The notes below the pieces were generated by a model that worked only from the letters and a program-made list of their open reading frames with translations, searched no databases and was not told the origin of the DNA. Source: a virus (taxonomy: Duplodnaviria; Caudoviricetes). Taken from it: a stretch of 64,000 nucleotides of DNA. Of this stretch, positions 598 to 30,906 are shown piece after piece; the stretch's first letter is position 1, and every line of letters begins with the position of its first letter. The translations under genes were made by a program, and so were the position numbers. Where the stretch lies: the IMG/VR virus record IMGVR_UViG_2974628631_000001, positions 61,727 to 125,726 of that record; one strand, written 5' to 3'.

Positions 598-2409
598 ATG
601 AATCTAGACTTTAACGACCTACTGAATATGCTCGATGGAGAGGACTTTGAAGAGCGTCCTGTCTCCATCGAAGAATTCGTACAGTCGGAAGACTATTTGA
701 ACCTTCCTACACTGTCCGAGAATCAGTACAAGCTTATCAAGGCAAGCAGCCAGATTTACAAGAAGACAACACTAGTTGCTCTTTATGGTGAGCTGGAGGC
801 AGAAAAGCGCTTTGCAGAAACAATGAACGAGGTTATCTTCCAGCTTGGAAAGGGTTCTGGTAAGGGATACACATCCTCTATTGCCTGTGCCTACATCGTT
901 TATCTGCTCATGTGTCTAAAGGACCCGGCCAAATATTATGGCAAGCCACCTGGTGACCACATCGCTATTCTGAACATTGCTATTAACGCCGCACAGGCTC
1001 AGAACGTCTTCTTCAAGTACTTCAAGCAGCGCATTACCTCAAGCCCATGGTTTGCAGGTAAGTACACCGAGAAGGCTGGAGAATTCCAGTTCGACAAGAA
1101 TGTATTTGTTTACTCAGGTCACTCAGAGCGTGAGGCTTGGGAGGGTTACAATGTAATCTTCGTTATCCTTGACGAGATTTCCGGTTTCGCTCTGGATTCA
1201 ACTTCAGGTAATGAGCAGGCAAAGACAGCTTCGGCAGTTTACAAGATGTACAAGCAGTCTGTCACTTCTCGATTCCCTGAATTCGGTAAGGTAGTTCTCC
1301 TGTCGTTCCCACGATTCAAGAACGACTTTATCCAGCAGCGCTATGCAGATGTTATTGCTGAGAAGGAAACAATTACACGCACATACCGTTTCAAGGTAAA
1401 CCCGGACCTTCCTGAGAATACGGAAGGAAATGAATTCGATATCGAGTGGGAAGAAGACCACATCATTTCCTATCGGATTCCTAAGGTGTTTGCTCTCAAG
1501 CGGCCAACATGGGAAATCAATCCTCTCATCAAGCTTGACGACCTGATGGCAGCGTTCTACGATGACCCCATCGACTCGCTGTCTCGTTTCGCCTGTATGC
1601 CACCTGACGCCATTGACGCGTTCTTCAAGGACCGTGCCAAGATTGAGTCAGCCTTTTCCTCACAGTCCTCTCTAAAGGAGGACAACAGCTTCCGCCCGGA
1701 CTTTATTCCGAACCCTGAGAAAAGGTACTACGTCCACGTGGACCTTGCCCGAGTGCACGACCATGCGGCGGTTGCTCTGGCTCACGTGGAAAAGTGGGAG
1801 CAGAGAAATATCGGCGGTAACTTGACAGAGCCAGCACCCGTAGTTATCGTGGACCAGGTTCGTTATTGGACCCCTAGCAAGACAAAGAACGTAGACTTTA
1901 CAGAGATTCGTGAATATATCCTGAGCCTCAAGAGGCGCGGGTTCAATATTCGTCTCGTCACGTTTGACCGCTGGGAGTCTGCTGACACCATGCAGTACCT
2001 CAACGACCGTGGACTCAGGGCAGAGCGTCTGTCTGTGGCAAAGAAGCACTATGAAGACTTTGCCATGGTTATTGCCGAGCAGAGAGTTGTAGGTCCAAAG
2101 ATTGAGCTATTGATTGAAGAGCTTTTGCAGCTTCGTATCATGAATAACGACAAGGTAGACCACCCTAGAAAGGGAAGTAAGGACTTGTCCGATGCGGTTT
2201 GTGGGGCTATCTTCAACGCAATTGCACATACTCCACGAAACCTTGATGAAACAATTGAAGTCAAGACATTGGAGTCAGTCCATAGAGAAGTAAGGCAGAA
2301 CAAGCTAGATAAATATGAGCAGATGAAGGCAGATGGTGTCATTCGTGCACCTAAGCGACAGATGCCACAGGAGCTTGAAGATTTTCTTGCCAGAATCTCT
2401 ACCATCTGA
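598..2409 (+). CDS. terL: terminase large subunit
   Basis: Walker A GKGSGK, Walker B VILDE, RNase H-like nuclease motifs HVDLA...TFD...KDLSDAV; ATG at 598 preferred over GTG at 577. Confidence 0.9.
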   Translation: MNLDFNDLLNMLDGEDFEERPVSIEEFVQSEDYLNLPTLSENQYKLIKASSQIYKKTTLVALYGELEAEKRFAETMNEVIFQLGKGSGKGYTSSIACAYIVYLLMCLKDPAKYYGKPPGDHIAILNIAINAAQAQNVFFKYFKQRITSSPWFAGKYTEKAGEFQFDKNVFVYSGHSEREAWEGYNVIFVILDEISGFALDSTSGNEQAKTASAVYKMYKQSVTSRFPEFGKVVLLSFPRFKNDFIQQRYADVIAEKETITRTYRFKVNPDLPENTEGNEFDIEWEEDHIISYRIPKVFALKRPTWEINPLIKLDDLMAAFYDDPIDSLSRFACMPPDAIDAFFKDRAKIESAFSSQSSLKEDNSFRPDFIPNPEKRYYVHVDLARVHDHAAVALAHVEKWEQRNIGGNLTEPAPVVIVDQVRYWTPSKTKNVDFTEIREYILSLKRRGFNIRLVTFDRWESADTMQYLNDRGLRAERLSVAKKHYEDFAMVIAEQRVVGPKIELLIEELLQLRIMNNDKVDHPRKGSKDLSDAVCGAIFNAIAHTPRNLDETIEVKTLESVHREVRQNKLDKYEQMKADGVIRAPKRQMPQELEDFLARISTI

Positions 2410-2412
2410 GGC

Positions 2413-2441
2413 TTGACACGGGACATAGGTCCCGTTAGACT
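2413..2441 (+). promoter_or_regulatory. housekeeping-sigma (HrdB-like) promoter, representative of many
   Basis: TTGACA-N17-TAGACT; similar TTGACA-N17/18-TANNNT at about 4799, 6819, 8319, 11331, 17690, 26008, 26130, 28717, 40586. Confidence 0.7.
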
Positions 2442-2473
2442 AGAAAAAGATTAAAACAATTAGTAGCAAAGAG

Positions 2474-2722
2474 ATGAAGATTACTCTAGTAGATTCTAAT
2501 GAAGTATGTAAGTGTGTAGGGAAGCACATCCCGAAGCCAACCAAACTCTATCGAATTGATTATTCGGGCGGGTTTGTCTTCGTGTGCCCCACAGCCTACT
2601 TGAATCTGGTATCCTTGGAAGAAGAGTATGTGAAGCATGATGGTCTTCCGCCTGGTTCAGTAAGGAAACACTTCTCAGAGTTTACTCATGAACTGTACAG
2701 ACTAATGACTCGTTCAGCTTGA
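2474..2722 (+). CDS. hypothetical protein
   Basis: ORF downstream of promoter. Confidence 0.6.
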   Translation: MKITLVDSNEVCKCVGKHIPKPTKLYRIDYSGGFVFVCPTAYLNLVSLEEEYVKHDGLPPGSVRKHFSEFTHELYRLMTRSA

Positions 2723-2775
2723 CAGTTGCACAGCCTGCCGGGTTATGGTAGACTGAAATCACAGGTTGAACACAA

Positions 2776-2849
2776 GTGGGTATGGGAAAGTTTGGTAATC
2801 CGTCTGCTTTGGGAGCAGAAGAACGTCGGTTCAAATCCGGCTGCCCGCA
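2776..2849 (+). tRNA. tRNA-Pro(TGG)
   Basis: anticodon arm tctgc-tt-TGG-ga-gcaga, T-loop ttcaaat. Confidence 0.9.
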
Positions 2850-2926
2850 CGTGAGGTTTTAGGTTTGCCCTCTCTGGAGCAAGGACACAACATCCATTCA
2901 GTTGGACCAGAGGAAAACCTAGCTAT

Positions 2927-3001
2927 CGGGATGTAGCTCAGCTTGGTCAGAGCGCGCGGTTTGGGACCGTGAAGTCGTAGGTTCGAATCCTATCATCCCG
3001 A
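2927..3001 (+). tRNA. tRNA-Pro(TGG), second copy
   Basis: cgggatg/catcccg acceptor stem, TGG anticodon, ttcgaat. Confidence 0.95.
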
Positions 3002-3036
3002 CTTCCTGAATAAAATGCCATGCAAAGGAAAGTCTA

Positions 3037-3555
3037 ATGAATGACATAATGACGCGTGAGGAAATCATCCTTGCGCTTGAGGCTAGAGATGGTTTAAACT
3101 GTTTCTTGTGTAAGGAACCATTCTCAAAGGATGTAAACAGTCCTTTGTTTGAGGTGACTATTGACCACTGGTATCCACAGTCTATTGCTTTTGCAGAGGG
3201 TTGGACGTATGATGAGGTCAATGCAATCTCAAACTTGAGAAAGGCGCACAGACCTTGTAACGCAAATAAGGGTGACCTAGTTCCGAATCCTGATGGTACT
3301 CTTCCACAGAGGCCAGTCAAGGAAAGAACGATTAGGCTTCCGCGTCCAGTGTCATGCGACACCTGCATGAATGGTAGAATTCTTCTACTTGGAGAAATTT
3401 GCCCGGATTGTAGTTCTGGACCACAACCCAGAGCATTCCCTAAGACTCTTCAGAAGACTCCAAAGGAATGTGACCACAGTAGTTATCACTGTTGGATGTG
3501 CGTCATCGGCCACATTCCACGAAAGTCTGCACTTCAGACGATAATTACTGGCTGA
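3037..3555 (+). CDS. HNH endonuclease
   Basis: CxxC, TIDHWYP...NLRKAHRPCNANKG. Confidence 0.85.
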   Translation: MNDIMTREEIILALEARDGLNCFLCKEPFSKDVNSPLFEVTIDHWYPQSIAFAEGWTYDEVNAISNLRKAHRPCNANKGDLVPNPDGTLPQRPVKERTIRLPRPVSCDTCMNGRILLLGEICPDCSSGPQPRAFPKTLQKTPKECDHSSYHCWMCVIGHIPRKSALQTIITG

Positions 3556-3657
3556 GCTTGACACCCCAGTCGTCAAGTAGTAACATGGTAGTACGCCCAA
3601 GGGGACCGGCGAATTTATCCCCCGCAGTTACATCTCTGCGATAGCAAAAGATGGCAA

Positions 3658-3728
3658 TGCTCCGTCGTATAACGGCAATACATTCGGCTCTGGACCGAAG
3701 AATTGAGGTTCGAATCCTTGCGGGGCAG
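3658..3728 (+). tRNA. tRNA-Gln(CTG)
   Basis: ttcgg-ct-CTG-ga-ccgaa, full cloverleaf. Confidence 0.92.
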
Positions 3729-3754
3729 CAAAGTCAAGTGCGACGGTACTTGAC

Positions 3755-3887
3755 GGGAGTGGCGGAACGCCTTACTATGGAGGTAACGCACATCGGGGCC
3801 TAACCAGCCGGTTGATAACCAAACTGATGGTCTAGACTAACGGAGTACATAGAGGTCTAGTGCCGGAAAACTTAATCCGGTCTCCCA
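3755..3887 (+). ncRNA. tRNA-like structured RNA candidate
   Basis: gggag/ctccc terminal stem, tRNA-like 5' tggcggaa, 3' gccgg-loop-ccggt arm, internal ctagac/gtctag helix. Confidence 0.4.
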
Positions 3888-3890
3888 CAT

Positions 3891-3964
3891 ATTCCAGAGC
3901 GTAGGTTGTGCCAGTCGGTCTCCAAAACCGTACTGCGAGAGTTCGAATCTCTCCTGGTTTGCCA
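3891..3964 (+). tRNA. atypical tRNA-Trp(CCA)
   Basis: cggt-ct-CCA-aa-accg, T arm gagag-ttcgaat-ctctc, encoded CCA; two U-U pairs in acceptor stem, reduced D arm. Confidence 0.7.
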
Positions 3965-4084
3965 ATACACCCTAGGAGGTGCTAGAGTGTTGATGAAGTT
4001 GAAGATGTTGCTTCACAAGTTCCGCCCGGTAGTTGATAAGCTACTGAGCAGATGGTACACTAGAAAAACAAAGTAAAAAACTTT

Positions 4085-4154
4085 TCGGGTCGGATGTAAA
4101 CGGTTATCTTTCAATTTGGTGAATACAATATCCCGTTTACAACAACACATCCGA
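4085..4154 (+). ncRNA. Y RNA-like element 1 (short)
   Basis: tcgggtcggatgtaaacggttatc...ccgtttaca...acatccga; 5' and 3' ends pair as a bulged helix. Confidence 0.65.
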
Positions 4155-4159
4155 ATCAT

Positions 4160-4234
4160 TGGGGTATAGCTCGGTCTGGTTAGAGCAATCGTCTGATAAG
4201 CGATAGGTCGTGGGTTCAAATCCCACTGCCCCAA
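4160..4234 (+). tRNA. tRNA-Ile(GAT)
   Basis: atcgt-ct-GAT-aa-gcgat. Confidence 0.93.
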
Positions 4235-4238
4235 CTGT

Positions 4239-4371
4239 GTGGGTCGAATGTTATCGGTTATCTTCCAAACAGCGGGTTATAGGTTCGAATCCTATCCTGG
4301 GCTTTCATGTCCAGGTAGCTCAATGGGTAGAGCAGCAGTCCTTTAAACACGATAGCAACAAACATATCCAC
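4239..4371 (+). ncRNA. yrlA: YrlA-type Y RNA with permuted tRNA-like domain
   Basis: GGGUCGAAUG matches GNCGAAN(0-1)G; internal order T arm (atagg-ttcgaat-cctat), loop-closed acceptor stem (cctgggc-tttcat-gtccagg), D arm (gctc-aatgggta-gagc); ends pair. Confidence 0.85.
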
Positions 4372-4378
4372 CAAGCTT

Positions 4379-4519
4379 GCGGGTCGGAGACATTCGGTTA
4401 TCTTTGATTCCAATACTATCAGAATTCCGGTTCGACTCCGGATTGTGGACGAATGGGAGTGGGTCCCAGCTAGTGTGATAGCTAGTTAGTCTACACCTTC
4501 CGATGTCATGTATATCCGC
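4379..4519 (+). ncRNA. Y RNA-like element 3
   Basis: gcgggtcggagacattcggttatc...ccgatgtc...atatccgc; internal T arm tccgg-ttcgact-ccgga. Confidence 0.7.
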
Positions 4520-4526
4520 ATATAAT

Positions 4527-4613
4527 GGAGGTTCAAGCCGATTGGCGACGGCACTTGTCTTGAAAACAAACGAGGTGTGAAAGCCCTTGGGGGTTCGACT
4601 CCCCCAGCCTCCG
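4527..4613 (+). tRNA. tRNA-Ser(TGA)
   Basis: TGA anticodon, long variable arm, G73. Confidence 0.92.
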
Positions 4614-4907
4614 CTTCCTAGTACTAAGGAGTAAAATGACTGAGACAGAAAATGTCGGTCCTTCTTCCTATCAGCTAGCAATCATCCTTGCGCTTCAAAG
4701 CAAGCATGTGTATGCTAACACTGTAAGTTACGAAGAGATTGCACGACGACGTAAGGCAAGCAAGCGGGCGCGACTTCAGCGCAGAACAAACAGAAGGCTT
4801 GACACGACACGTCGCTCGTGATAAGGTTTTAACAGAACAACAGATGGTCGGCAAGCAGGTAAGTGAGGAACACAGGAGCTTGAGCCACAACCCCTCCGCC
4901 ATCACAT

Positions 4908-4980
4908 GCGTCGTTAGTTCAGCGGTCAGAGCACTGCCCTGTCAAGGCAGAAGTCGCGGGTTCGAATCCCGTACGGCGCG
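4908..4980 (+). tRNA. tRNA-Asp(GTC)
   Basis: ctgcc-ct-GTC-aa-ggcag. Confidence 0.95.
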
Positions 4981-5018
4981 CATATATAATGTAACTGTTG
5001 CCTAGTGATTGGAATAAA

Positions 5019-5222
5019 ATGGCACGTGTTAAGAAGTTTGACCTTGTTGCCCTTGACAAGGACGGCTGGTTCTCTGCTAAGGTTAGTGGAAAGTTCCGGG
5101 GTCTGGTTGAAAAGACAGGTCGAAGCAACTATACTCTCCACCTTGGCAAGGGTGACGTGACCAACTTCAATACGAAGAAGGCACTTGAGACTTGGCTCAC
5201 GAACAAGTGGGCAACTAACTAA
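5019..5222 (+). CDS. hypothetical basic protein
   Basis: ATG after ggaat; phage-typical codon usage. Confidence 0.65.
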   Translation: MARVKKFDLVALDKDGWFSAKVSGKFRGLVEKTGRSNYTLHLGKGDVTNFNTKKALETWLTNKWATN

Positions 5223-5236
5223 ATACTTATAGCGTT

Positions 5237-5294
5237 CGGGTCGGAGGCTTTCGTTTATCATCGGAGAATAAGACGATTGTCAACCACATATCCG
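5237..5294 (+). ncRNA. Y RNA-like element 4 (short, degenerate)
   Basis: cgggtcggagg...gtttatc...acatatccg. Confidence 0.55.
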
Positions 5295-5322
5295 CTCTCT
5301 AACTTCTAGGCCCTAACAATTT

Positions 5323-5457
5323 CGGGTCGGATGTTCCTCGGTTATCTAAATTATACTGTGAATATAAAGGTGTCGGTTCGAATCCGGCCGGAAGCGCAAT
5401 GGTAGACTGTACAATCTGCCAAGTCACTGTAGTTTAAGTGTGGGAATAAAACATCCG
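5323..5457 (+). ncRNA. Y RNA-like element 5
   Basis: cgggtcggatgttcctcggttatc...gggaata...acatccg; internal T arm gtcgg-ttcgaat-ccggc. Confidence 0.7.
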
Positions 5458-5502
5458 TCCTAGGATAAGGATATGCACACGCGACCCGTGCCAGTGACGC
5501 TT

Positions 5503-5575
5503 GCCCCTGTAGTTCAATGGATAGAGCGACTGCCTTCTAAGCAGTAAGTTGCAGGTTCGAATCCTGTCGGGGGTA
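5503..5575 (+). tRNA. tRNA-Arg(TCT)
   Basis: actgc-ct-TCT-aa-gcagt. Confidence 0.95.
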
Positions 5576-5905
5576 CTTTATGAAAGACAAAATGCTTCGT
5601 AAAAGGTCTTCTTGGAGAACTTGGACCAGAACATATGGTTCTGAGCAGAAGAGGAATAACCGCGCATTTGAAAAGAAGCAATGGAGAAAAGAGTGGCTGA
5701 GCGAAAGCTGACAGTATACTTTGAATCAAGCGATGACATTGATGAAGACGAGTTCTTTGAATATGTTCATCGCTTTTTCTGTAAGAATCCCAACGACCCT
5801 GATGTAGATAATTGCAGGCTTTACGCGATGACTGCTCAAAGTGTAGTTGAGGAAGAAGAGTAAGCGTGCTATGATTGGGCTAACAAAGCCAAAGTAGGAG
5901 GCAAG

Positions 5906-6511
5906 TTGCCTAAGAGGAAATTCTTCTACGATACCGAATTCCATGAAGACGGAAAGACGATTGACCTTATTTCAATCGGCATTGTCCGTGGTGATGGAAA
6001 AGAATATTATGCGGTATCTTCAGAAGCAGATTATCGCCGGATTTATGAGAATAGTTGGCTCATGAATCATGTTATGAATACTATTCCGCATGTAGTTGTG
6101 GAGGTTCCCAATGATGGTGGATTCACCATTGTTCCAACAGGGCCGGATGTAAAGACTCGTGCTCAAATTAGAGAAGACATCATCAACTTTGTTGGAGAGA
6201 GTCAAGACGTTTTCAATGACCCTCATGGTGAGGCAAAGGCTGAGCTTTGGGCTTGGTATGCTGATTACGACCATGTAGCATTGTGTCAGCTCTTTGGTAA
6301 GATGATTGATTTGCCTGAGGGATTCCCTATGTTTACAAGGGACCTGAGACAGCATTGGGAGTATTGTGGCTATCCTGAACTTCCACGTCAGGATGATGGC
6401 GAACACAACGCGCTTGACGATGCCAGACATAATCTGGTAATGTGGAAGTACATGGAGGAGCACTGCAAGCAATATGGAAACACACGTTTTCTCGGTAATG
6501 CTTCAAGTTGA
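5906..6511 (+). CDS. DEDDh 3'-5' exoribonuclease (Rv2179c/RNase AS-like)
   Basis: FYDTEF...WAWYADYDHV...HNALDDA motifs. Confidence 0.85.
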   Translation: MPKRKFFYDTEFHEDGKTIDLISIGIVRGDGKEYYAVSSEADYRRIYENSWLMNHVMNTIPHVVVEVPNDGGFTIVPTGPDVKTRAQIREDIINFVGESQDVFNDPHGEAKAELWAWYADYDHVALCQLFGKMIDLPEGFPMFTRDLRQHWEYCGYPELPRQDDGEHNALDDARHNLVMWKYMEEHCKQYGNTRFLGNASS

Positions 6512-6859
6512 GGTAGAAGCACCATCTGAGGATGATGCTCGTGAAGCCATCAGAGATTGCTTCGGAGAGGGTAGCAACTGTGGTGCGAACGTGGTAGAGT
6601 ATGAGGTGCTTGACCATGCTAGACTTGACTGACATCGAAAATCGCGGGGTTACGTTCAAAAAGTTCTGTGGACTTGATGCCGAAGATGGTGTAGGATGTA
6701 CAGAAGAAGCGGTAGGAGACATCACTGCTGAACTAGAAGATGGAGTTAAGATTCCAGTTCCAGTGTGTGAAGGTCATCTACAAGAACTCATCGCTGCTTA
6801 CAATGTTGAGCAAGTGAGTTGACAGCGGTATGAACTCTTGCTATGATAGAAGAGTTCCT

Positions 6860-6932
6860 GGGGGTGTAGCTCCAATGGTAGAGCAACAGCTTTGCAAGCT
6901 GAAGGCTGTCGGTTCGAATCCGACCATCTCCA
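6860..6932 (+). tRNA. tRNA-Ala(TGC)
   Basis: TGC anticodon, G3-U70 pair. Confidence 0.95.
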
Positions 6933-6966
6933 CTGACCATATTTGGTCTACAAAGGGGGTGTACAC

Positions 6967-7026
6967 ATGTTGTACACACTACTAGTAATCTTGGTAATCA
7001 TCGTTATCTTGATGCTTATCTTCTAA
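6967..7026 (+). CDS. 19-aa hydrophobic peptide
   Basis: RBS aagggggt; MLYTLLVILVIIVILMLIF. Confidence 0.55.
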   Translation: MLYTLLVILVIIVILMLIF

Positions 7027-7035
7027 GGAGGTAAG

Positions 7036-7125
7036 ATGAGAGGCAGCGATGTAGTATGGACGATTGCAGGAGTACTCTTTGCGATTGCTCTAATCGTCTG
7101 GCTTGCGGATAACGTAAGCCTTTGA
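7036..7125 (+). CDS. 29-aa membrane peptide
   Basis: RBS aaggaggt; MRGSDVVWTIAGVLFAIALIVWLADNVSL. Confidence 0.6.
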   Translation: MRGSDVVWTIAGVLFAIALIVWLADNVSL

Positions 7126-7232
7126 TAGAGTAAAGCTCACGAACCTAGGTCGCCTCTGATACAAGCCGCCTATCAAGTTGTAGTGCACTACGCTTGACGC
7201 TCCAGTCCTGAGTCGGGTAAAATGGACAACAT

Positions 7233-7305
7233 GCTCCGGTAGCTCAGTTGGTAGAGCAGTTGACTCTTAATCATCAGGTCCTCGGTTCAAGTCCGAGTCG
7301 GAGTA
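7233..7305 (+). tRNA. tRNA-Lys(CTT)
   Basis: CTT anticodon, canonical D and T arms. Confidence 0.93.
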
Positions 7306-7376
7306 CGTATAGTATAATAACCCATAAAACACCCCAGTTGGTTTCCGGCTGGGGTTTTATCTTTAAAGGAGAAAAC

Positions 7377-8180
7377 ATGTTCGGTCGTCGTAAGGCTGCT
7401 TTCGTTCCCGACAACACCAAGCGAGTTCTGAAGACTGTCAAGGTTGTTAAGCGAGACCCTTCTACCGCTGCGGCCCCCGTTGACCTTATCAAGAAGGTTG
7501 GGGTTTCTTTTGAAAAGAAGGTCGAGTCTGCGGTCAATCTGAACAAGAACGTCAGTGGCCCTTCTCGTGGAGTCGTCTGGAATGTCATCGGTCTGCTTGA
7601 CGAGTCTTACTCTATGGACCCCTTCTTCTATGATGGTACGGTTCAGGAGATTGTTGACCGTGTGCTTGCATGGTCTGCGTCGGTTGATGCTGATGGCCTG
7701 GTGCCTTTCGGCGGGTTTGCTAACAGCCACGTTTGGCACGGTGACGTTGACCTGACGAACGTTAATAACGTCGTTGCTACAAATGGATGGTCCCCCTGGG
7801 GTGGAACCAACCTTGCTGACTCTCTCAAGGCTATCCTTGACATGGTTAAGGATATGGGAGATGCTTGGCAGGAAAACCCCATCCTTCTGTTCATCGTGAC
7901 GGATGGTATGCCTCAGAATCAGGCTCTTGTTAAGCAGTACATTCAGGAGCTTTCTCAGTACCCTGTCTTTATCAAGATTCTGCGGGTGGGTAGTGACCCT
8001 GGTGCCAAGGCTTTTGTTGAAGACCTTGACAACATGGTCGGTGGTCGCCTGGTGGATAATGTTGAGGCTCCGGATGATGGTCTCCGCAAGGGGATGTCTG
8101 ACGATAAGTTCAACGCTGCTATGATTAACGACATGGACAAGTACATCAACGACGCAACTGCGGCGGGTCTCCTTCAGTGA
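7377..8180 (+). CDS. vWA domain protein (Ter-associated type)
   Basis: MIDAS DESYS, GGT, FIVTDG; RBS aaggag before ATG 7377. Confidence 0.85.
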   Translation: MFGRRKAAFVPDNTKRVLKTVKVVKRDPSTAAAPVDLIKKVGVSFEKKVESAVNLNKNVSGPSRGVVWNVIGLLDESYSMDPFFYDGTVQEIVDRVLAWSASVDADGLVPFGGFANSHVWHGDVDLTNVNNVVATNGWSPWGGTNLADSLKAILDMVKDMGDAWQENPILLFIVTDGMPQNQALVKQYIQELSQYPVFIKILRVGSDPGAKAFVEDLDNMVGGRLVDNVEAPDDGLRKGMSDDKFNAAMINDMDKYINDATAAGLLQ

Positions 8181-8420
8181 ACGAACGACTTGACGACATG
8201 GTTGAAGCATGGCATACTTCAGGTGAAGAGGAAACACGCTCTCTACAAGAGTACCTTGACATGAATGATGCGGAGTTTCAGATTTGGGTAGTAACTGCGA
8301 AGTTGACAGACTCCTACCTTGACAGACATCCTGAGATGATGTAAGATATAAGAACAAGGTCGCAGGGATACAACGCGAGATTCGCTCCGGGTATGTATCT
8401 TAAAAGTAAGCTGCGATTAT

Positions 8421-8493
8421 GGCTCGGTGGTGAAATTGGTTATCACGCCTCCCTCATAAGGAAGTATTTCGGGTTCGAGTCCCGGCTGAGCTA
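8421..8493 (+). tRNA. tRNA-Met/Ile2(CAT)
   Basis: CAT anticodon, paired 1:72. Confidence 0.88.
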
Positions 8494-8494
8494 C

Positions 8495-8567
8495 TGCGCG
8501 GTAGTGGAGTTAGGTTCCACGTGGGGCTCATAACCCTAAGACGCCGGTTCGAATCCGGCCTGCGCCA
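8495..8567 (+). tRNA. initiator tRNA-fMet(CAT)
   Basis: 1:72 mismatch, GGG/CCC in anticodon stem. Confidence 0.88.
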
Positions 8568-30241: not shown

Positions 30242-30440
30242 CAGACAGAAGAAGCCAAAGCCGATGGGTAATGGAAACTACACAATTTGCAGGAAGTGCC
30301 ACGGCTTTGGTACAATCGTAGAAACGAAGCACTACCGAGGCAAGGTTCTTGCCAACAAGAACAACGAAGTTGACCTCTTCATCAGATGTCCAAAGTGTCT
30401 TGGTGGAGGCTGGACAGTCGCCAAGTAGTGTGCTATGATG

Positions 30441-30542
30441 GATACATCGGGTCGGAGATAAACGGTTATCATGGATGAAATTGACTAACGCTCGATTGGG
30501 TTTCGATACCCGCTCCGTTTGTCACACCACATCCGATGTATC
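30441..30542 (+). ncRNA. Y RNA-like element 6
   Basis: gatacatcgggtcggagataaacggttatc...ccgtttgtc...acatccgatgtatc. Confidence 0.7.
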
Positions 30543-30546
30543 TAAT

Positions 30547-30617
30547 GCGAGTGTGGTTTAATGGTAGAACAACAGACTTCCACTCTGTTAGTCGGGGTTC
30601 GATTCCCCGTACTCGCT
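30547..30617 (+). tRNA. tRNA-Gly(TCC)
   Basis: acaga-ct-TCC-ac-tctgt. Confidence 0.93.
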
Positions 30618-30906
30618 CGAAACGAATGTCCCCGCTGGTAAAAACTAGCGGGGCTTCGTTGTTTCTATGGTAAGATGGAGTCATGGAAGAGATTGTTTCG
30701 TACAGCTTTGCTGTAGATATTTACAAGACGGAGTCTGGGACGTATGCTTACGGAGTGTTCCAAGAGCTAGAGTCTGAGACTGAAGATGACCTACAGTTGC
30801 TAGAAACTGGCGAGGCTGATACACTAGCTGAAGCTGCTGACATGGCAAGCAAGAGTATCAGAACGTTGTTTTCTGTGTGACTTCTGACCCTTTCGTAAAG
30901 GGTCTT

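What the first reader, a model, noticed from the sequence alone, without database searches (positions are those of the whole stretch)
4085..5457. Cluster of five Y RNA-like elements sharing a Ro60-type helix with different cargo modules
Seen: five elements (4085, 4239, 4379, 5237, 5323) share GGGUCG(G/A)A at the 5' end, then a variable helix strand, G(G/U)UUAUC, an insert, the complementary strand, an A/C-rich linker and AUCC(G/A). The helices covary (tgtaaacgg/ccgtttaca, tgttatcg/cgatagca, gacattcgg/ccgatgtc). The copy at 4239 has a complete permuted tRNA domain (T arm, loop-closed acceptor stem, D arm). The copies at 4379 and 5323 keep only a T arm plus unrelated hairpins, and 4085 and 5237 are minimal. 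Established: bacterial YrlA Y RNAs have a GNCGAAN(0-1)G Ro60-binding helix plus a tRNA-like domain, and Y RNAs tether Ro60 to effectors such as PNPase. Inference: a diversified, modular family of phage Y RNA adaptors or decoys, far more than the one or two usually reported per genome. No TROVE/Ro60 gene is recognisable in this window.
Basis: partly seen in the sequence, partly recalled or inferred. Interest (0 to 1): 0.88.

Follow-up and report, generated by a model that had tools for sequence, protein, structure and literature searches.

The report
Orphaned Y RNA genes in phage
A Streptomyces phage carries six small Y RNA-type genes among its tRNA genes, but a deletion has removed the Ro60 protein gene that its relatives keep beside them.

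Summary
The window, from a roughly 126 kb Streptomyces phage of the Stanwilliamsviridae, holds six elements rather than five. Each has a terminal stem (GGGU/AUCC), an invariant GGGUCG, a covarying helix, UUAUC, a variable insert and an A/C-rich 3' linker.

Orthologues in 10 related phages keep every helix through compensatory changes. E2 is a YrlA-type tRNA mimic with a T arm, a 7-bp acceptor-like hairpin and a D arm. E3 has a T arm plus a conserved three-way module. E1 and E4 are hairpins.

Relatives encode a true Ro60 (TROVE plus vWA_Ro60) about 1.2 kb downstream. In this genome a 4.19 kb deletion between two identical 18-nt T arms removed Ro60 and five other genes.

Across 15 other phage genomes, the 12 with TROVE have 2-7 such elements and the 3 without have none.

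These are best read as phage Y RNAs, a known kind that is unannotated here. They are unusually numerous and in this phage have lost their Ro60 partner. Ro60 binding, expression and host Ro60 remain untested.

The parts
4033..4061 (+). promoter-like site upstream of E1 (TTGATA, 17 nt, TACACT)
   Evidence: Consensus scan. The -35-like TTGACAAG and a -10-like hexamer are kept in 8 of 8 phages aligned, even where the flanking sequence differs. Function is inferred.
4084..4155 (+). E1, a minimal hairpin-type Y RNA-like element, 4 nt before tRNA-Ile (4160-4235)
   Evidence: Pattern match; R1 score 66.7 bits, in the training set; 17 consensus pairs in 9 phages, 6 of them compensatory. Its best Rfam match is the nematode sbRNA family RF01656, at 22 bits against a gathering score of 38.
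4239..4371 (+). E2, a YrlA-type element with GUCGAAUG, UUAUC, V region, T arm, 7-bp acceptor-like hairpin and D arm; starts 3 nt after tRNA-Ile
   Evidence: Rfam YrlA 37.8 bits, model positions 1-114. 31 pairs, 15 compensatory, 97.7% of cells paired against 32-47% when partners are slid. Held out of model R1 and found at 30.6 bits.
4378..4520 (+). E3, the Y RNA core plus a T arm plus a conserved three-way module (a stem enclosing two hairpins); ends 6 nt before tRNA-Ser (4527-4614)
   Evidence: 37 pairs, 16 compensatory, 97.0% of cells paired against 30-46% slid. Held out of R1 and found at 31.8 bits.
5237..5294 (+). E4, a minimal hairpin-type element
   Evidence: Pattern match; R1 score 55.7 bits, in the training set. 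The orthologue alignment gives 13 pairs with only 1 compensatory, so covariation is weak.
5320..5388 (+). E5 remnant: the 5' half (terminal-stem strand, GGGUCGGA, helix strand, UUAUC, V region, T arm) of a YrlA-type element
   Evidence: 70 of 70 columns identical to Beuffert E5. Orthologues in 10 phages are complete YrlA-like RNAs with 32 pairs. The whole chimera scores only 15.7 bits with R1, E 0.053.
5371..5388 (+). deletion junction inside a hybrid T arm
   Evidence: blastn aligns window 3521-5388 to L004 1-1875 and window 5371-8500 to L004 6067-9250. The same 18-mer occurs in Beuffert at L004 1858 (E5 T arm) and 6067 (tRNA-Arg(acg) T arm).
5389..5502 (+). 3' end of the former tRNA-Arg(acg) plus the conserved leader of tRNA-Arg(tct) (5503-5576); not part of a Y RNA
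   Evidence: The leader is 95% identical in Faust, where it lies about 160 nt away from tRNA-Arg(acg).
30411..30439 (+). promoter-like site of the E6 unit (TGGACA, 17 nt, TG-extended TATGAT)
   Evidence: Consensus scan. T(T/G)GACA and TGCTATGAT are invariant in 4 of 4 phages while the spacer varies.
30444..30540 (+). E6, the sixth Y RNA-like element, with a T-arm-like hairpin; ends 6 nt before tRNA-Gly (30547-30618)
   Evidence: Pattern match; R1 score 61.4 bits, in the training set. Orthologues in Beuffert, Faust and Sham keep the helix through G-U intermediates and changed pairs.
30630..30662 (+). terminator-like hairpin plus T-rich tail closing the E6-tRNA-Gly unit
   Evidence: The stem covaries in 4 phages.

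Best explanation
The elements are genes for phage Y RNAs, the small non-coding RNAs that partner the ring-shaped Ro60 protein.

Each RNA pairs its 5' and 3' ends into a terminal stem (flank plus GGGU with AUCC plus flank). An internal loop follows, carrying the invariant CG of GGGUCG on the 5' side and an A/C-rich 6-8 nt linker on the 3' side. Then comes a covarying 8-9 bp helix, and UUAUC opens the apical region. This core is the presumed Ro60 binding module (inferred by homology).

The apical region differs between paralogues:
- E2, and E5 in relatives, carry a permuted tRNA domain. Its 7-bp acceptor-like stem should make it an RNase P and CCA-adding substrate, like M. smegmatis YrlA.
- E3 carries a T arm plus a three-way module.
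- E6 carries a T-like hairpin.
- E1 and E4 are plain hairpins.

The RNAs are packed head to tail with tRNAs, with spacers of 3-6 nt. They are probably made from the same precursors and released by tRNA-processing enzymes. E6 plus tRNA-Gly has its own conserved promoter-like and terminator-like signals.

In related phages the RNAs would load the phage's own Ro60, gating it or tethering it to other factors during infection (inferred from D. radiodurans and Salmonella). In this phage, recombination between two identical 18-nt T arms deleted 4.19 kb. The deletion removed Ro60, five neighbouring genes, most of tRNA-Arg(acg) and the 3' part of E5. The five intact RNAs are therefore either orphaned remnants of a recent loss or work with a host Ro60.
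For: Family and chance:
- The joint pattern gives 6 matches against 0.07 expected, all on the + strand.

Structure:
- E2 has 31 pairs, 15 of them compensatory, with 97.7% of cells paired against 32-47% in slid controls.
- E3 has 37 pairs, 16 compensatory, with 97.0% paired against 30-46%.
- E5 orthologues have 32 pairs, 8 compensatory.
- The core across 17 paralogues and orthologues is 74.6% paired against 27-53% slid, with 0 of 500 shuffles reaching the observed covariation score.

Kinship:
- Rfam YrlA matches E2 over model positions 1-114 at 37.8 bits, E 4.6e-6.
- E2 carries GUCGAAUG, which fits GNCGAAN0-1G, and all copies carry the YUAY (PMC4201824, section 6 read).
- The minimal E1's best Rfam hit is the nematode Y RNA homologue family RF01656. 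Its members also carry UUAUC at the 5' end of the loop (PMC4450293, passages read).

Model R1:
- R1 was built without E2, E3 and E5. It recovers E3 at 31.8 bits and E2 at 30.6 bits over its full length. The next unrelated hit scores 12.3 bits, E 0.44.

Ro60 link:
- Beuffert gp100 has TROVE (E 2.8e-41) and vWA_Ro60 (E 1.8e-65). It lies 1.16 kb downstream of E5 on the same strand. Faust, Sham, TunaTartare, Kenrey and Moab have the same layout.
- Of 15 other phage genomes, all 12 with TROVE have 2-7 R1 matches and all 3 without have none.
- The same core stands in tandem directly upstream of Ro60 in unrelated IMG/VR contigs and in an Iamiaceae MAG.

Deletion. The genome is 4,209 bp shorter than Beuffert.

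Expression signals.
Against: - No Ro60 binding or transcript data exist for any of these RNAs. No sequencing run listed is on record as RNA.
- Every YrlA match is far below Rfam's gathering score of 69 bits. Only E2 matches at all in the window, and Beuffert's complete E5 does not match YrlA at E up to 1.
- The AA of GNCGAA is not conserved. Five of the six window copies have GUCGGA, and orthologues have AU, UA, UU, CU, GC or GU there. Only GGGUCG is invariant.
- E4 shows almost no covariation, with 1 of 13 pairs compensatory.
- This genome has no Ro60, yet E1-E4 and E6 look intact. That fits a Ro60-independent role as well as it fits a recent loss.
- The co-occurrence rests on close relatives and amounts to perhaps three independent lineages. 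R1 was trained on sequences from seven of those genomes.
- Promoter and terminator calls are consensus matches only.
- The deletion junction has no independent read support.
Confidence: 0.8

Rival explanations
1. The RNAs have a Ro60-independent role. They would act on their own or with another protein, for example as tRNA-mimic decoys or substrates for host tRNA-directed enzymes or nucleases, or as processing or stability modules for the tRNA operons. On this view the neighbourhood with Ro60 in relatives is secondary.
For: This genome has no TROVE gene yet keeps five intact copies, and E1 is 76 of 77 identical to Beuffert's. E6 lies about 26 kb from Ro60 in Beuffert (record 96351 against 68904-70520) with its own promoter-like and terminator-like signals. 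All copies abut tRNAs at 3-6 nt. The AA of the published Ro motif is not conserved.
Against: Elements and TROVE co-occur in 15 of 15 other genomes. The Wakandavirus group (3 genomes) has the same tRNA-Ile, tRNA-Ser and tRNA-Asp genes back to back with no elements and no Ro60. The same core lies directly upstream of Ro60 in unrelated loci that have no tRNA array around it. The core also resembles YrlA and sbRNA.
Confidence: 0.1
2. They are decayed or rearranged tRNA genes and structured spacers of a recombining tRNA array, with no function of their own.
For: The T arms are near-identical to those of the phage's tRNAs. A 17-mer is shared between E2 and tRNA-Pro at 2978, and 16-mers between E5 and tRNAs at 6907 and 8545. 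The array does recombine at such repeats, as shown by this deletion and by Comrade, which lacks E2 and E3. One record annotates E5 as a tRNA.
Against: The non-tRNA core (terminal stem, GGGUCG, helix, UUAUC, linker) is shared by all copies. It is kept by compensatory changes across three genera. Decay would not preserve 97% pairing.
Confidence: 0.04
3. The missing Ro60 is an assembly artefact. On this view the real phage has the 4.19 kb block, and the assembler collapsed it at the repeated T arm.
For: The breakpoints are an exact 18-nt repeat. No other record or contig shows this junction, and none of the four runs laid bridges it.
Against: An 18-nt repeat is shorter than the usual assembly word sizes. 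The record has direct terminal repeats, is rated 100% complete, and is 4,209 bp shorter than Beuffert, which equals the block. The related phage Comrade shows a comparable natural loss between repeats.
Confidence: 0.12

Closest known systems
YrlA (Y RNA-like A; Rfam RF02553; Chen et al. 2014, PMC4201824)
   Same: E2, and E5 in relatives, have the 5' GNCG motif, the YUAY that opens the V region, then a T arm, a loop-closed acceptor-like stem and a D arm. They lie upstream of a Ro60 orthologue on the same strand within 4 kb in relatives. The acceptor-like stem is 7 bp, as in the M. smegmatis YrlA that RNase P cleaves. The 2014 paper already reported YrlA in 22 phages; the text names only mycobacteriophages.
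   Different: Scores are about half of Rfam's gathering score. The AA of GNCGAA varies between orthologues. Both strands of the terminal stem are conserved, whereas the paper says only the 5' strand is recognisable in the Salmonella and M. smegmatis RNAs. The genes sit inside tRNA operons. This genome has no Ro60.
Second Y RNAs of bacteria (M. smegmatis YrlB with a T arm; S. Typhimurium YrlB and D. radiodurans Yrn2, long hairpins)
   Same: E3 and E6 (core plus a T arm or T-like arm) and E1 and E4 (long hairpins) fit the two non-YrlA classes the paper describes. As in M. smegmatis, several RNAs are probably cut from one precursor.
   Different: There are five to seven paralogues per genome rather than two. 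E3's three-way module, conserved with covariation, matches no Rfam family. No sequence comparison with YrlB or Yrn2 was possible, because no sequences were held.
Nematode stem-bulge RNAs and metazoan Y RNAs (Rfam RF01656 ceN72-3_ceN74-2; Kowalski et al. 2015, PMC4450293)
   Same: The layout is the same: terminal stem, bulged region with GGUC(C)G, upper helix, UUAUC at the 5' end of the loop, and an A/C-rich 3' linker. RF01656 is the best Rfam match of E1 (22 bits) and of two Iamiaceae elements (29 and 28.4 bits).
   Different: All scores are below the gathering score of 38. The sbRNA family belongs to a eukaryotic lineage and has been tied to DNA replication. This is a resemblance of the core, not membership.
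Mycobacteriophage Ro60 loci (Bxz1-type)
   Same: These are large actinobacteriophages with many tRNAs, a tmRNA, a Ro60 gene and Y RNA-like elements next to it. Bxz1 has an R1 match about 330 nt upstream of Ro60 and a YrlA match at 32.5 bits.
   Different: Bxz1 has 2 R1 matches, against 5-7 in the Loccivirinae phages with Ro60.

Membership tests
YrlA (RF02553) | GNCGAAN0-1G motif near the 5' end | tested here: inconclusive
   E2 has GUCGAAUG at 4243-4250, an exact fit. E1, E3, E4, E5 and E6 have GUCGGA, one mismatch. Orthologues vary at the AA, and only GGGUCG is invariant.
YrlA (RF02553) | YUAY opening the V region after the first helix strand | tested here: met
   UUAU(C) follows the helix strand in 6 of 6 window copies. 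It is nearly invariant in 17 aligned elements.
YrlA (RF02553) | tRNA-like domain in the order T arm, loop-closed acceptor-like stem, D arm | tested here: met
   Met for E2 only. Met for E5 in 10 relatives, but not in the window, where E5 is cut after the T arm. Not met for E1, E3, E4 and E6.
YrlA (RF02553) | score at or above Rfam's gathering score (69 bits) | tested here: not met
   E2 scores 37.8 bits. Relatives score 33-37 bits and other Ro60 loci 35-51 bits.
YrlA (RF02553) | encoded within 4 kb of a Ro60 orthologue on the same strand (criterion of Chen et al. 2014) | tested here: not met
   This genome has no TROVE gene. The criterion is met by the orthologues of E1-E5 in Beuffert, Faust, Sham, TunaTartare, Kenrey and Moab. 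It is not met by E6 orthologues, which lie about 26 kb away.
Y RNA in general | 5' and 3' ends paired into a stem that carries the conserved Ro60-binding helix | tested here: met
   The terminal stem and inner helix are predicted in every slot and supported by covariation. The flank pair switches between C-G (10 of 17) and U-A (7 of 17) among the aligned elements.
Y RNA in general | bound and stabilised by Ro60 | not testable with these tools
   No binding or expression data are available. Only co-occurrence with TROVE in 15 of 15 other genomes.
Nematode sbRNA (RF01656) | score at or above the gathering score (38 bits) | tested here: not met
   E1 scores 22 bits and Beuffert E5 17.2 bits. This is a resemblance of the core only.

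The most novel reading that the evidence does not exclude
Loccivirinae phages carry a kit of five to seven Y RNAs. Each would have the same Ro60-docking core and a different apical module, so that one Ro60 ring could be pointed at different partners or substrates during infection, such as tRNA-processing enzymes or an exoribonuclease. This natural Ro60-deletion phage would then show that the RNAs are kept without the phage protein. That could be because they capture a host Ro60, or because they also act alone as tRNA mimics against host tRNA-directed defences. The shared stem-UUAUC core with nematode sbRNAs would then point to one ancient Y RNA design spanning phages, bacteria and animals.
Probability: 0.15. 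Interest if true: 0.85.

Novelty: new variant of a known kind. Interest (0 to 1): 0.58.

Why it matters
Bacterial Y RNAs are understood from three species, each with about two RNAs. What their variable modules recruit is still open.

Here one phage lineage offers five to seven paralogues with a common core and clearly different modules, each conserved by covariation. It also offers natural comparison genomes:
- relatives with Ro60 and the RNAs;
- relatives with neither (the Wakandavirus group);
- this phage, with the RNAs but no Ro60.

That makes the question of what each Y RNA module does directly testable in a tractable Streptomyces phage system. It also shows that 118 Streptomyces phage records with a Ro60 homologue probably carry unannotated Y RNA genes. 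In the records seen here they are blank, and in Sham one is called a tRNA.

Tried and rejected
- **Descriptor scan.** A hand-written scan (GNCG, YUAY, a 7-bp helix and a 5-bp terminal stem) was useless. It gave 8 hits in the window against a mean of 7.0 in random sequence, and it missed E3-E5. Covariance model R1 replaced it.
- **Was the window E5 3' end part of a seventh Y RNA wrapping tRNA-Arg(acg)?** Rejected. Folding of the Beuffert region shows no such stem. In Faust the same stretch lies about 160 nt from tRNA-Arg(acg), just upstream of tRNA-Arg(tct).
- **Sequencing runs.** No RNA holder was listed and the best run held 0.27 of the words. Four runs were laid and no contig bridges 5371-5388. 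In X3 two contigs stop matching at 5385 and 5371 and run on into other sequence, as a relative with the undeleted layout would. This neither confirms nor refutes the junction and says nothing on expression.
- **Junction elsewhere.** The junction 26-mer has 0 matches in IMG/VR, with the window's own record left out. No phage record spans it.
- **Host Ro60.** A sample of 401 Actinomycetota genomes gave 13 with TROVE. That count includes the unpublished genome G049, and no names are given, so whether Streptomyces hosts have Ro60 stays open. A literature search on Streptomyces, Ro60 and TROVE returned only noise.
- **Prior reports.** Searches for Y RNAs in Streptomyces phages found none:
  - 'YrlA' with 'phage' gave 6 papers, none on Streptomyces.
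  - 'Streptomyces phage' with 'Ro-like' gave 2 papers, neither mentioning Y RNA.
  - 'Y RNA', 'Ro60', 'bacteriophage' and 'Streptomyces' together gave 0.
  - 'Y RNA', 'Ro60', 'phage' and 'tRNA-like' gave 2.
- **Sources I could not see.** The 2020 Annual Review on bacterial Ro60 is not held. Supplements are closed, so Supplemental Tables S1 and S2 of Chen et al. 2014 (which phages, and how many YrlA each) were not seen and may bear on novelty.
Full report
**What the window is.** The region matches Streptomyces phages of the Stanwilliamsviridae, subfamily Loccivirinae. Beuffert is 91.4% identical and Blueeyedbeauty 91.0%. Faust, Sham, TunaTartare and the Gilsonvirus group are 74-82% identical. 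The window is bases 61727-125726 of a 125,726-bp virus record with direct terminal repeats, rated 100% complete. It holds 30 tRNA genes and a tmRNA by ARAGORN; Rfam finds 32 tRNA matches and the tmRNA.

**The observation.** GGGTCGRA occurs 11 times in the window against 3.78 expected. Six of these are on the + strand inside the elements. The joint pattern GGTCGRA-N6-12-TTATC occurs 6 times against 0.07 expected, with 0 of 100 shuffles reaching 6. In the whole genome it gives 6 forward matches, 0 reverse and 0 for the reversed control pattern.

A sixth is at 30449. Stem-defined limits are:
- E1 4084-4155
- E2 4239-4371
- E3 4378-4520
- E4 5237-5294
- E5 from 5320
- E6 30444-30540

The copies lie 3-6 nt from neighbouring tRNAs or from each other. 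E1, tRNA-Ile, E2, E3 and tRNA-Ser form one uninterrupted head-to-tail run from 4084 to 4614.

**Anatomy and covariation.** I took orthologues from up to ten phages of three genera and folded each slot.
- E2 has 31 consensus pairs, 15 with compensatory changes. They form a terminal stem of 6 pairs, a variable helix of 9, a T arm of 5, an acceptor-like hairpin of 7 and a D arm of 4. 97.7% of cells are paired against 32-47% when partners are slid by 1-3 columns. 15 pairs have double changes against 1-5 in the slid controls.
- E3 has 37 pairs, 16 compensatory. They form the terminal stem, the helix, a T arm, and a 6-pair stem enclosing two hairpins. 97.0% of cells are paired against 30-46% slid.
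- E5 in ten relatives is a complete YrlA-like RNA with a T arm, a 7-pair acceptor-like hairpin and a D arm; 32 pairs, 8 compensatory.
- E1 has 17 pairs, 6 compensatory. Its orthologues in other genera carry larger inserts.
- E4 has 13 pairs and only 1 compensatory, so its support is weak.

Across 17 short elements, including three from a bacterial MAG and one from an unrelated viral contig, the two core helices are 74.6% paired against 27-53% slid. 0 of 500 shuffles reach the observed covariation score. The pair next to GGGU/AUCC switches between C-G (10 of 17) and U-A (7 of 17).

Only GGGUCG, UUAUC and AUCC are close to invariant. The two bases after GGGUCG vary among orthologues.

**Census with a model.** Covariance model R1 has 78 positions and 16 pairs. 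It was built from those 17 elements and so excludes E2, E3 and E5. I scanned the window with filters off.
- The training copies E1, E6 and E4 score 66.7, 61.4 and 55.7 bits.
- The held-out E3 and E2 score 31.8 and 30.6 bits over the full model.
- The E5 chimera scores 15.7 bits (E 0.053).
- The next hit scores 12.3 bits (E 0.44).
- The other half of the genome adds none.

**Kinship with known Y RNAs.** Rfam's YrlA model aligns E2 over positions 1-114 at 37.8 bits. This is below the gathering score of 69, with E 4.6e-6 in a 2.8 kb search.

Chen et al. 2014 (PMC4201824; abstract, sections 5 and 6 and passages read) define YrlA by three features: a 5' GNCGAAN0-1G, a YUAY that begins the V loop, and T, AS and D stem-loops. 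They report the RNAs within 4 kb of Ro60 on the same strand, in 254 bacteria and 22 phages. The phages named in the text are mycobacteriophages, and 'Streptomyces' does not occur in the text. E2 has GUCGAAUG and all six copies have UUAU.

The paper also reports the following:
- Only the M. smegmatis YrlA, with a 7-bp acceptor stem, is cut by RNase P and receives CCA.
- M. smegmatis YrlB has a T arm.
- Each studied species has a long-hairpin Y RNA.
- YrlA and YrlB come from one precursor.

The window's set maps onto these classes. E2 and E5 are YrlA-type with 7-bp stems, E3 and E6 are T-arm type, and E1 and E4 are hairpins.

The minimal E1's best Rfam match is RF01656 (ceN72-3_ceN74-2), at 22 bits against a gathering score of 38. 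CeN72 and CeN74-2 are C. elegans stem-bulge RNAs, which are Y RNA homologues. Their loop begins with a conserved UUAUC (PMC4450293, passages read). The Rfam consensus printed shows the same order of parts, including an A/C-rich 3' linker.

**Why Ro60 is missing.** Relatives annotate a 'Ro-like RNA binding protein' just downstream. Beuffert gp100 has TROVE (E 2.8e-41) and vWA_Ro60 (E 1.8e-65). The window's genome has no TROVE match.

blastn shows window 3521-5388 equal to Beuffert L004 1-1875, and window 5371-8500 equal to L004 6067-9250. So 4,191 bp of Beuffert are absent. The 18 bases at 5371-5388 match both edges. They are the T arm of E5 and the T arm of tRNA-Arg(acg), which share an identical 18-mer in Beuffert. 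The two genomes differ in length by 4,209 bp.

The lost block comprises:
- the acceptor-like hairpin, D arm and 3' strands of E5;
- gp97, gp98, gp99 (Pfam Phage_VG64), Ro60, gp101 and gp102;
- the first 46 nt of tRNA-Arg(acg).

That leader is 95% conserved in Faust at a different distance from tRNA-Arg(acg).

I could not verify the junction independently. It is absent from IMG/VR, no phage record spans it, and no contig of four runs bridges it.

**Link to Ro60 across genomes.** I searched 15 other phage genomes with both R1 and TROVE.
- Twelve have TROVE, and all twelve have R1 matches at E up to 0.01: Kenrey, Stigma, Moab and Forrest 7 each; Beuffert, Faust, Sham and TunaTartare 6 each; Blueeyedbeauty and Comrade 5 each; Samisti12 3; Bxz1 2.
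- Three lack TROVE (Wakanda, Muntaha, Byblos), and all three have 0 matches.

In Wakanda and Muntaha the tRNA-Ile, tRNA-Ser and tRNA-Asp genes stand back to back where the elements would be.

There are caveats. These are relatives, so the independent events are few. R1 was also trained on pieces from seven of these genomes.

Some support is independent of that training:
- IMG/VR contigs whose Ro60 is about 40% identical carry YrlA matches of 35-51 bits, and tandem elements of the same design, directly upstream of Ro60.
- An Iamiaceae MAG carries three such mini-elements in the 320 nt before Ro60.

Ro60 homologues occur in 359 of 50,697 phage records, of which 211 are Mycobacterium and 118 Streptomyces.

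**Signals of expression (inferred).** Upstream of E6 there is TGGACA, a 17-nt spacer and a TG-extended TATGAT that ends 4 nt before the RNA. Both boxes are invariant in four phages while the spacer varies. tRNA-Gly follows E6 after 6 nt. A hairpin with a T-rich tail follows the tRNA, and its stem covaries. E1 is preceded by TTGACAAG and a -10-like box, conserved in 8 of 8 phages. No terminator-like site lies within 2400-6000.

**How it most likely works.**
- Shown: a conserved, covarying RNA family of six loci; its kinship with YrlA; its genomic coupling to Ro60 in relatives; and the deletion relative to those relatives.
- In this phage the partner is gone. The five intact RNAs show no decay: E1 is 76 of 77, E2 131 of 140, E3 125 of 148 and E4 63 of 67 identical to Beuffert, and the differences in E2 and E3 stems are compensatory. 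That fits a recent loss, use of a host Ro60, or a Ro60-independent role. I cannot tell these apart.

**Novelty.** Phage YrlA next to Ro60 is known. Four things appear to be new, judging from the searches and the annotation seen:
- the presence of Y RNAs in Streptomyces phages;
- the size and diversity of the set (5-7), including the three-way module of E3 and a distal, self-contained E6-tRNA unit;
- the embedding of the genes in tRNA operons;
- a natural genome that keeps the RNAs without Ro60.

Supplements of Chen et al. 2014 and the 2020 review could not be read and may narrow this.

Noticed in passing
window 3734-3891 (+): A sub-threshold match to the manA RNA family (RF01745, 45.2 bits against a gathering score of 55.2, E 9.4e-10), just downstream of tRNA-Gln. 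Faust has the same at L002 1637-1792 (46.3 bits).
   Followed up: partly
window 3891-3961 (+): An odd tRNA-Trp(cca)-like sequence. ARAGORN does not call it and Rfam tRNA gives only 20.9 bits. It differs from Beuffert's tRNA-Trp in this slot (54.3 bits) and resembles the version annotated as tRNA-Trp in Kenrey and Wakanda.
   Followed up: partly
window 5906-6511 (+): This ORF matches the Rv2179c-like 3'-5' exoribonuclease domain (PF16473, E 9.1e-12). Relatives annotate it as a DnaQ-like DNA polymerase III subunit. It lies about 2 kb downstream of Ro60 in Beuffert, so it is a candidate nuclease partner. That link is speculation.
   Followed up: no
window 7248-8180 (+): This ORF has a vWA domain of the TerF C-terminal type (PF10138, E 9e-25). 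It is a separate vWA protein and not a Ro60 remnant.
   Followed up: no
window 5396-5500 (+): The leader upstream of tRNA-Arg(tct) is 95% identical in Faust while its surroundings diverge. It contains a hairpin and could be a promoter or another small RNA.
   Followed up: partly
L043 (Streptomyces phage Comrade) 1164-1264: Comrade lacks E2 and E3. The 5' flank of E2 is joined to the body of the extra element E3b, which suggests recombination between the conserved 5' motifs of the paralogues. Gilsonvirus phages have this seventh element (E3b), which is absent from the window.
   Followed up: partly
L003 (Streptomyces phage Sham) 3265-3326: The GenBank record annotates part of E5 as a 62-nt 'tRNA-Ser(cga)'. 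None of the three records whose features I listed across the E1-E5 cluster annotates any of the elements as ncRNA.
   Followed up: no
L054 3688-3920 (Iamiaceae MAG): Three tandem mini Y RNA-like hairpins of 68-78 nt, each with GNCGAAG, UUAUC or UUACC and an A/C-rich linker, lie directly before a bacterial Ro60 gene. Two of them match the nematode sbRNA model at 29 and 28.4 bits.
   Followed up: partly
window 4280-4296 and 2978-2994: E2's T arm shares an exact 17-mer with tRNA-Pro(tgg). E5's T arm shares 16-mers with tRNAs at 6907 and 8545. The Y RNA T arms are thus near-copies of the phage's own tRNA T arms, which makes them recombination hot spots.
   Followed up: partly
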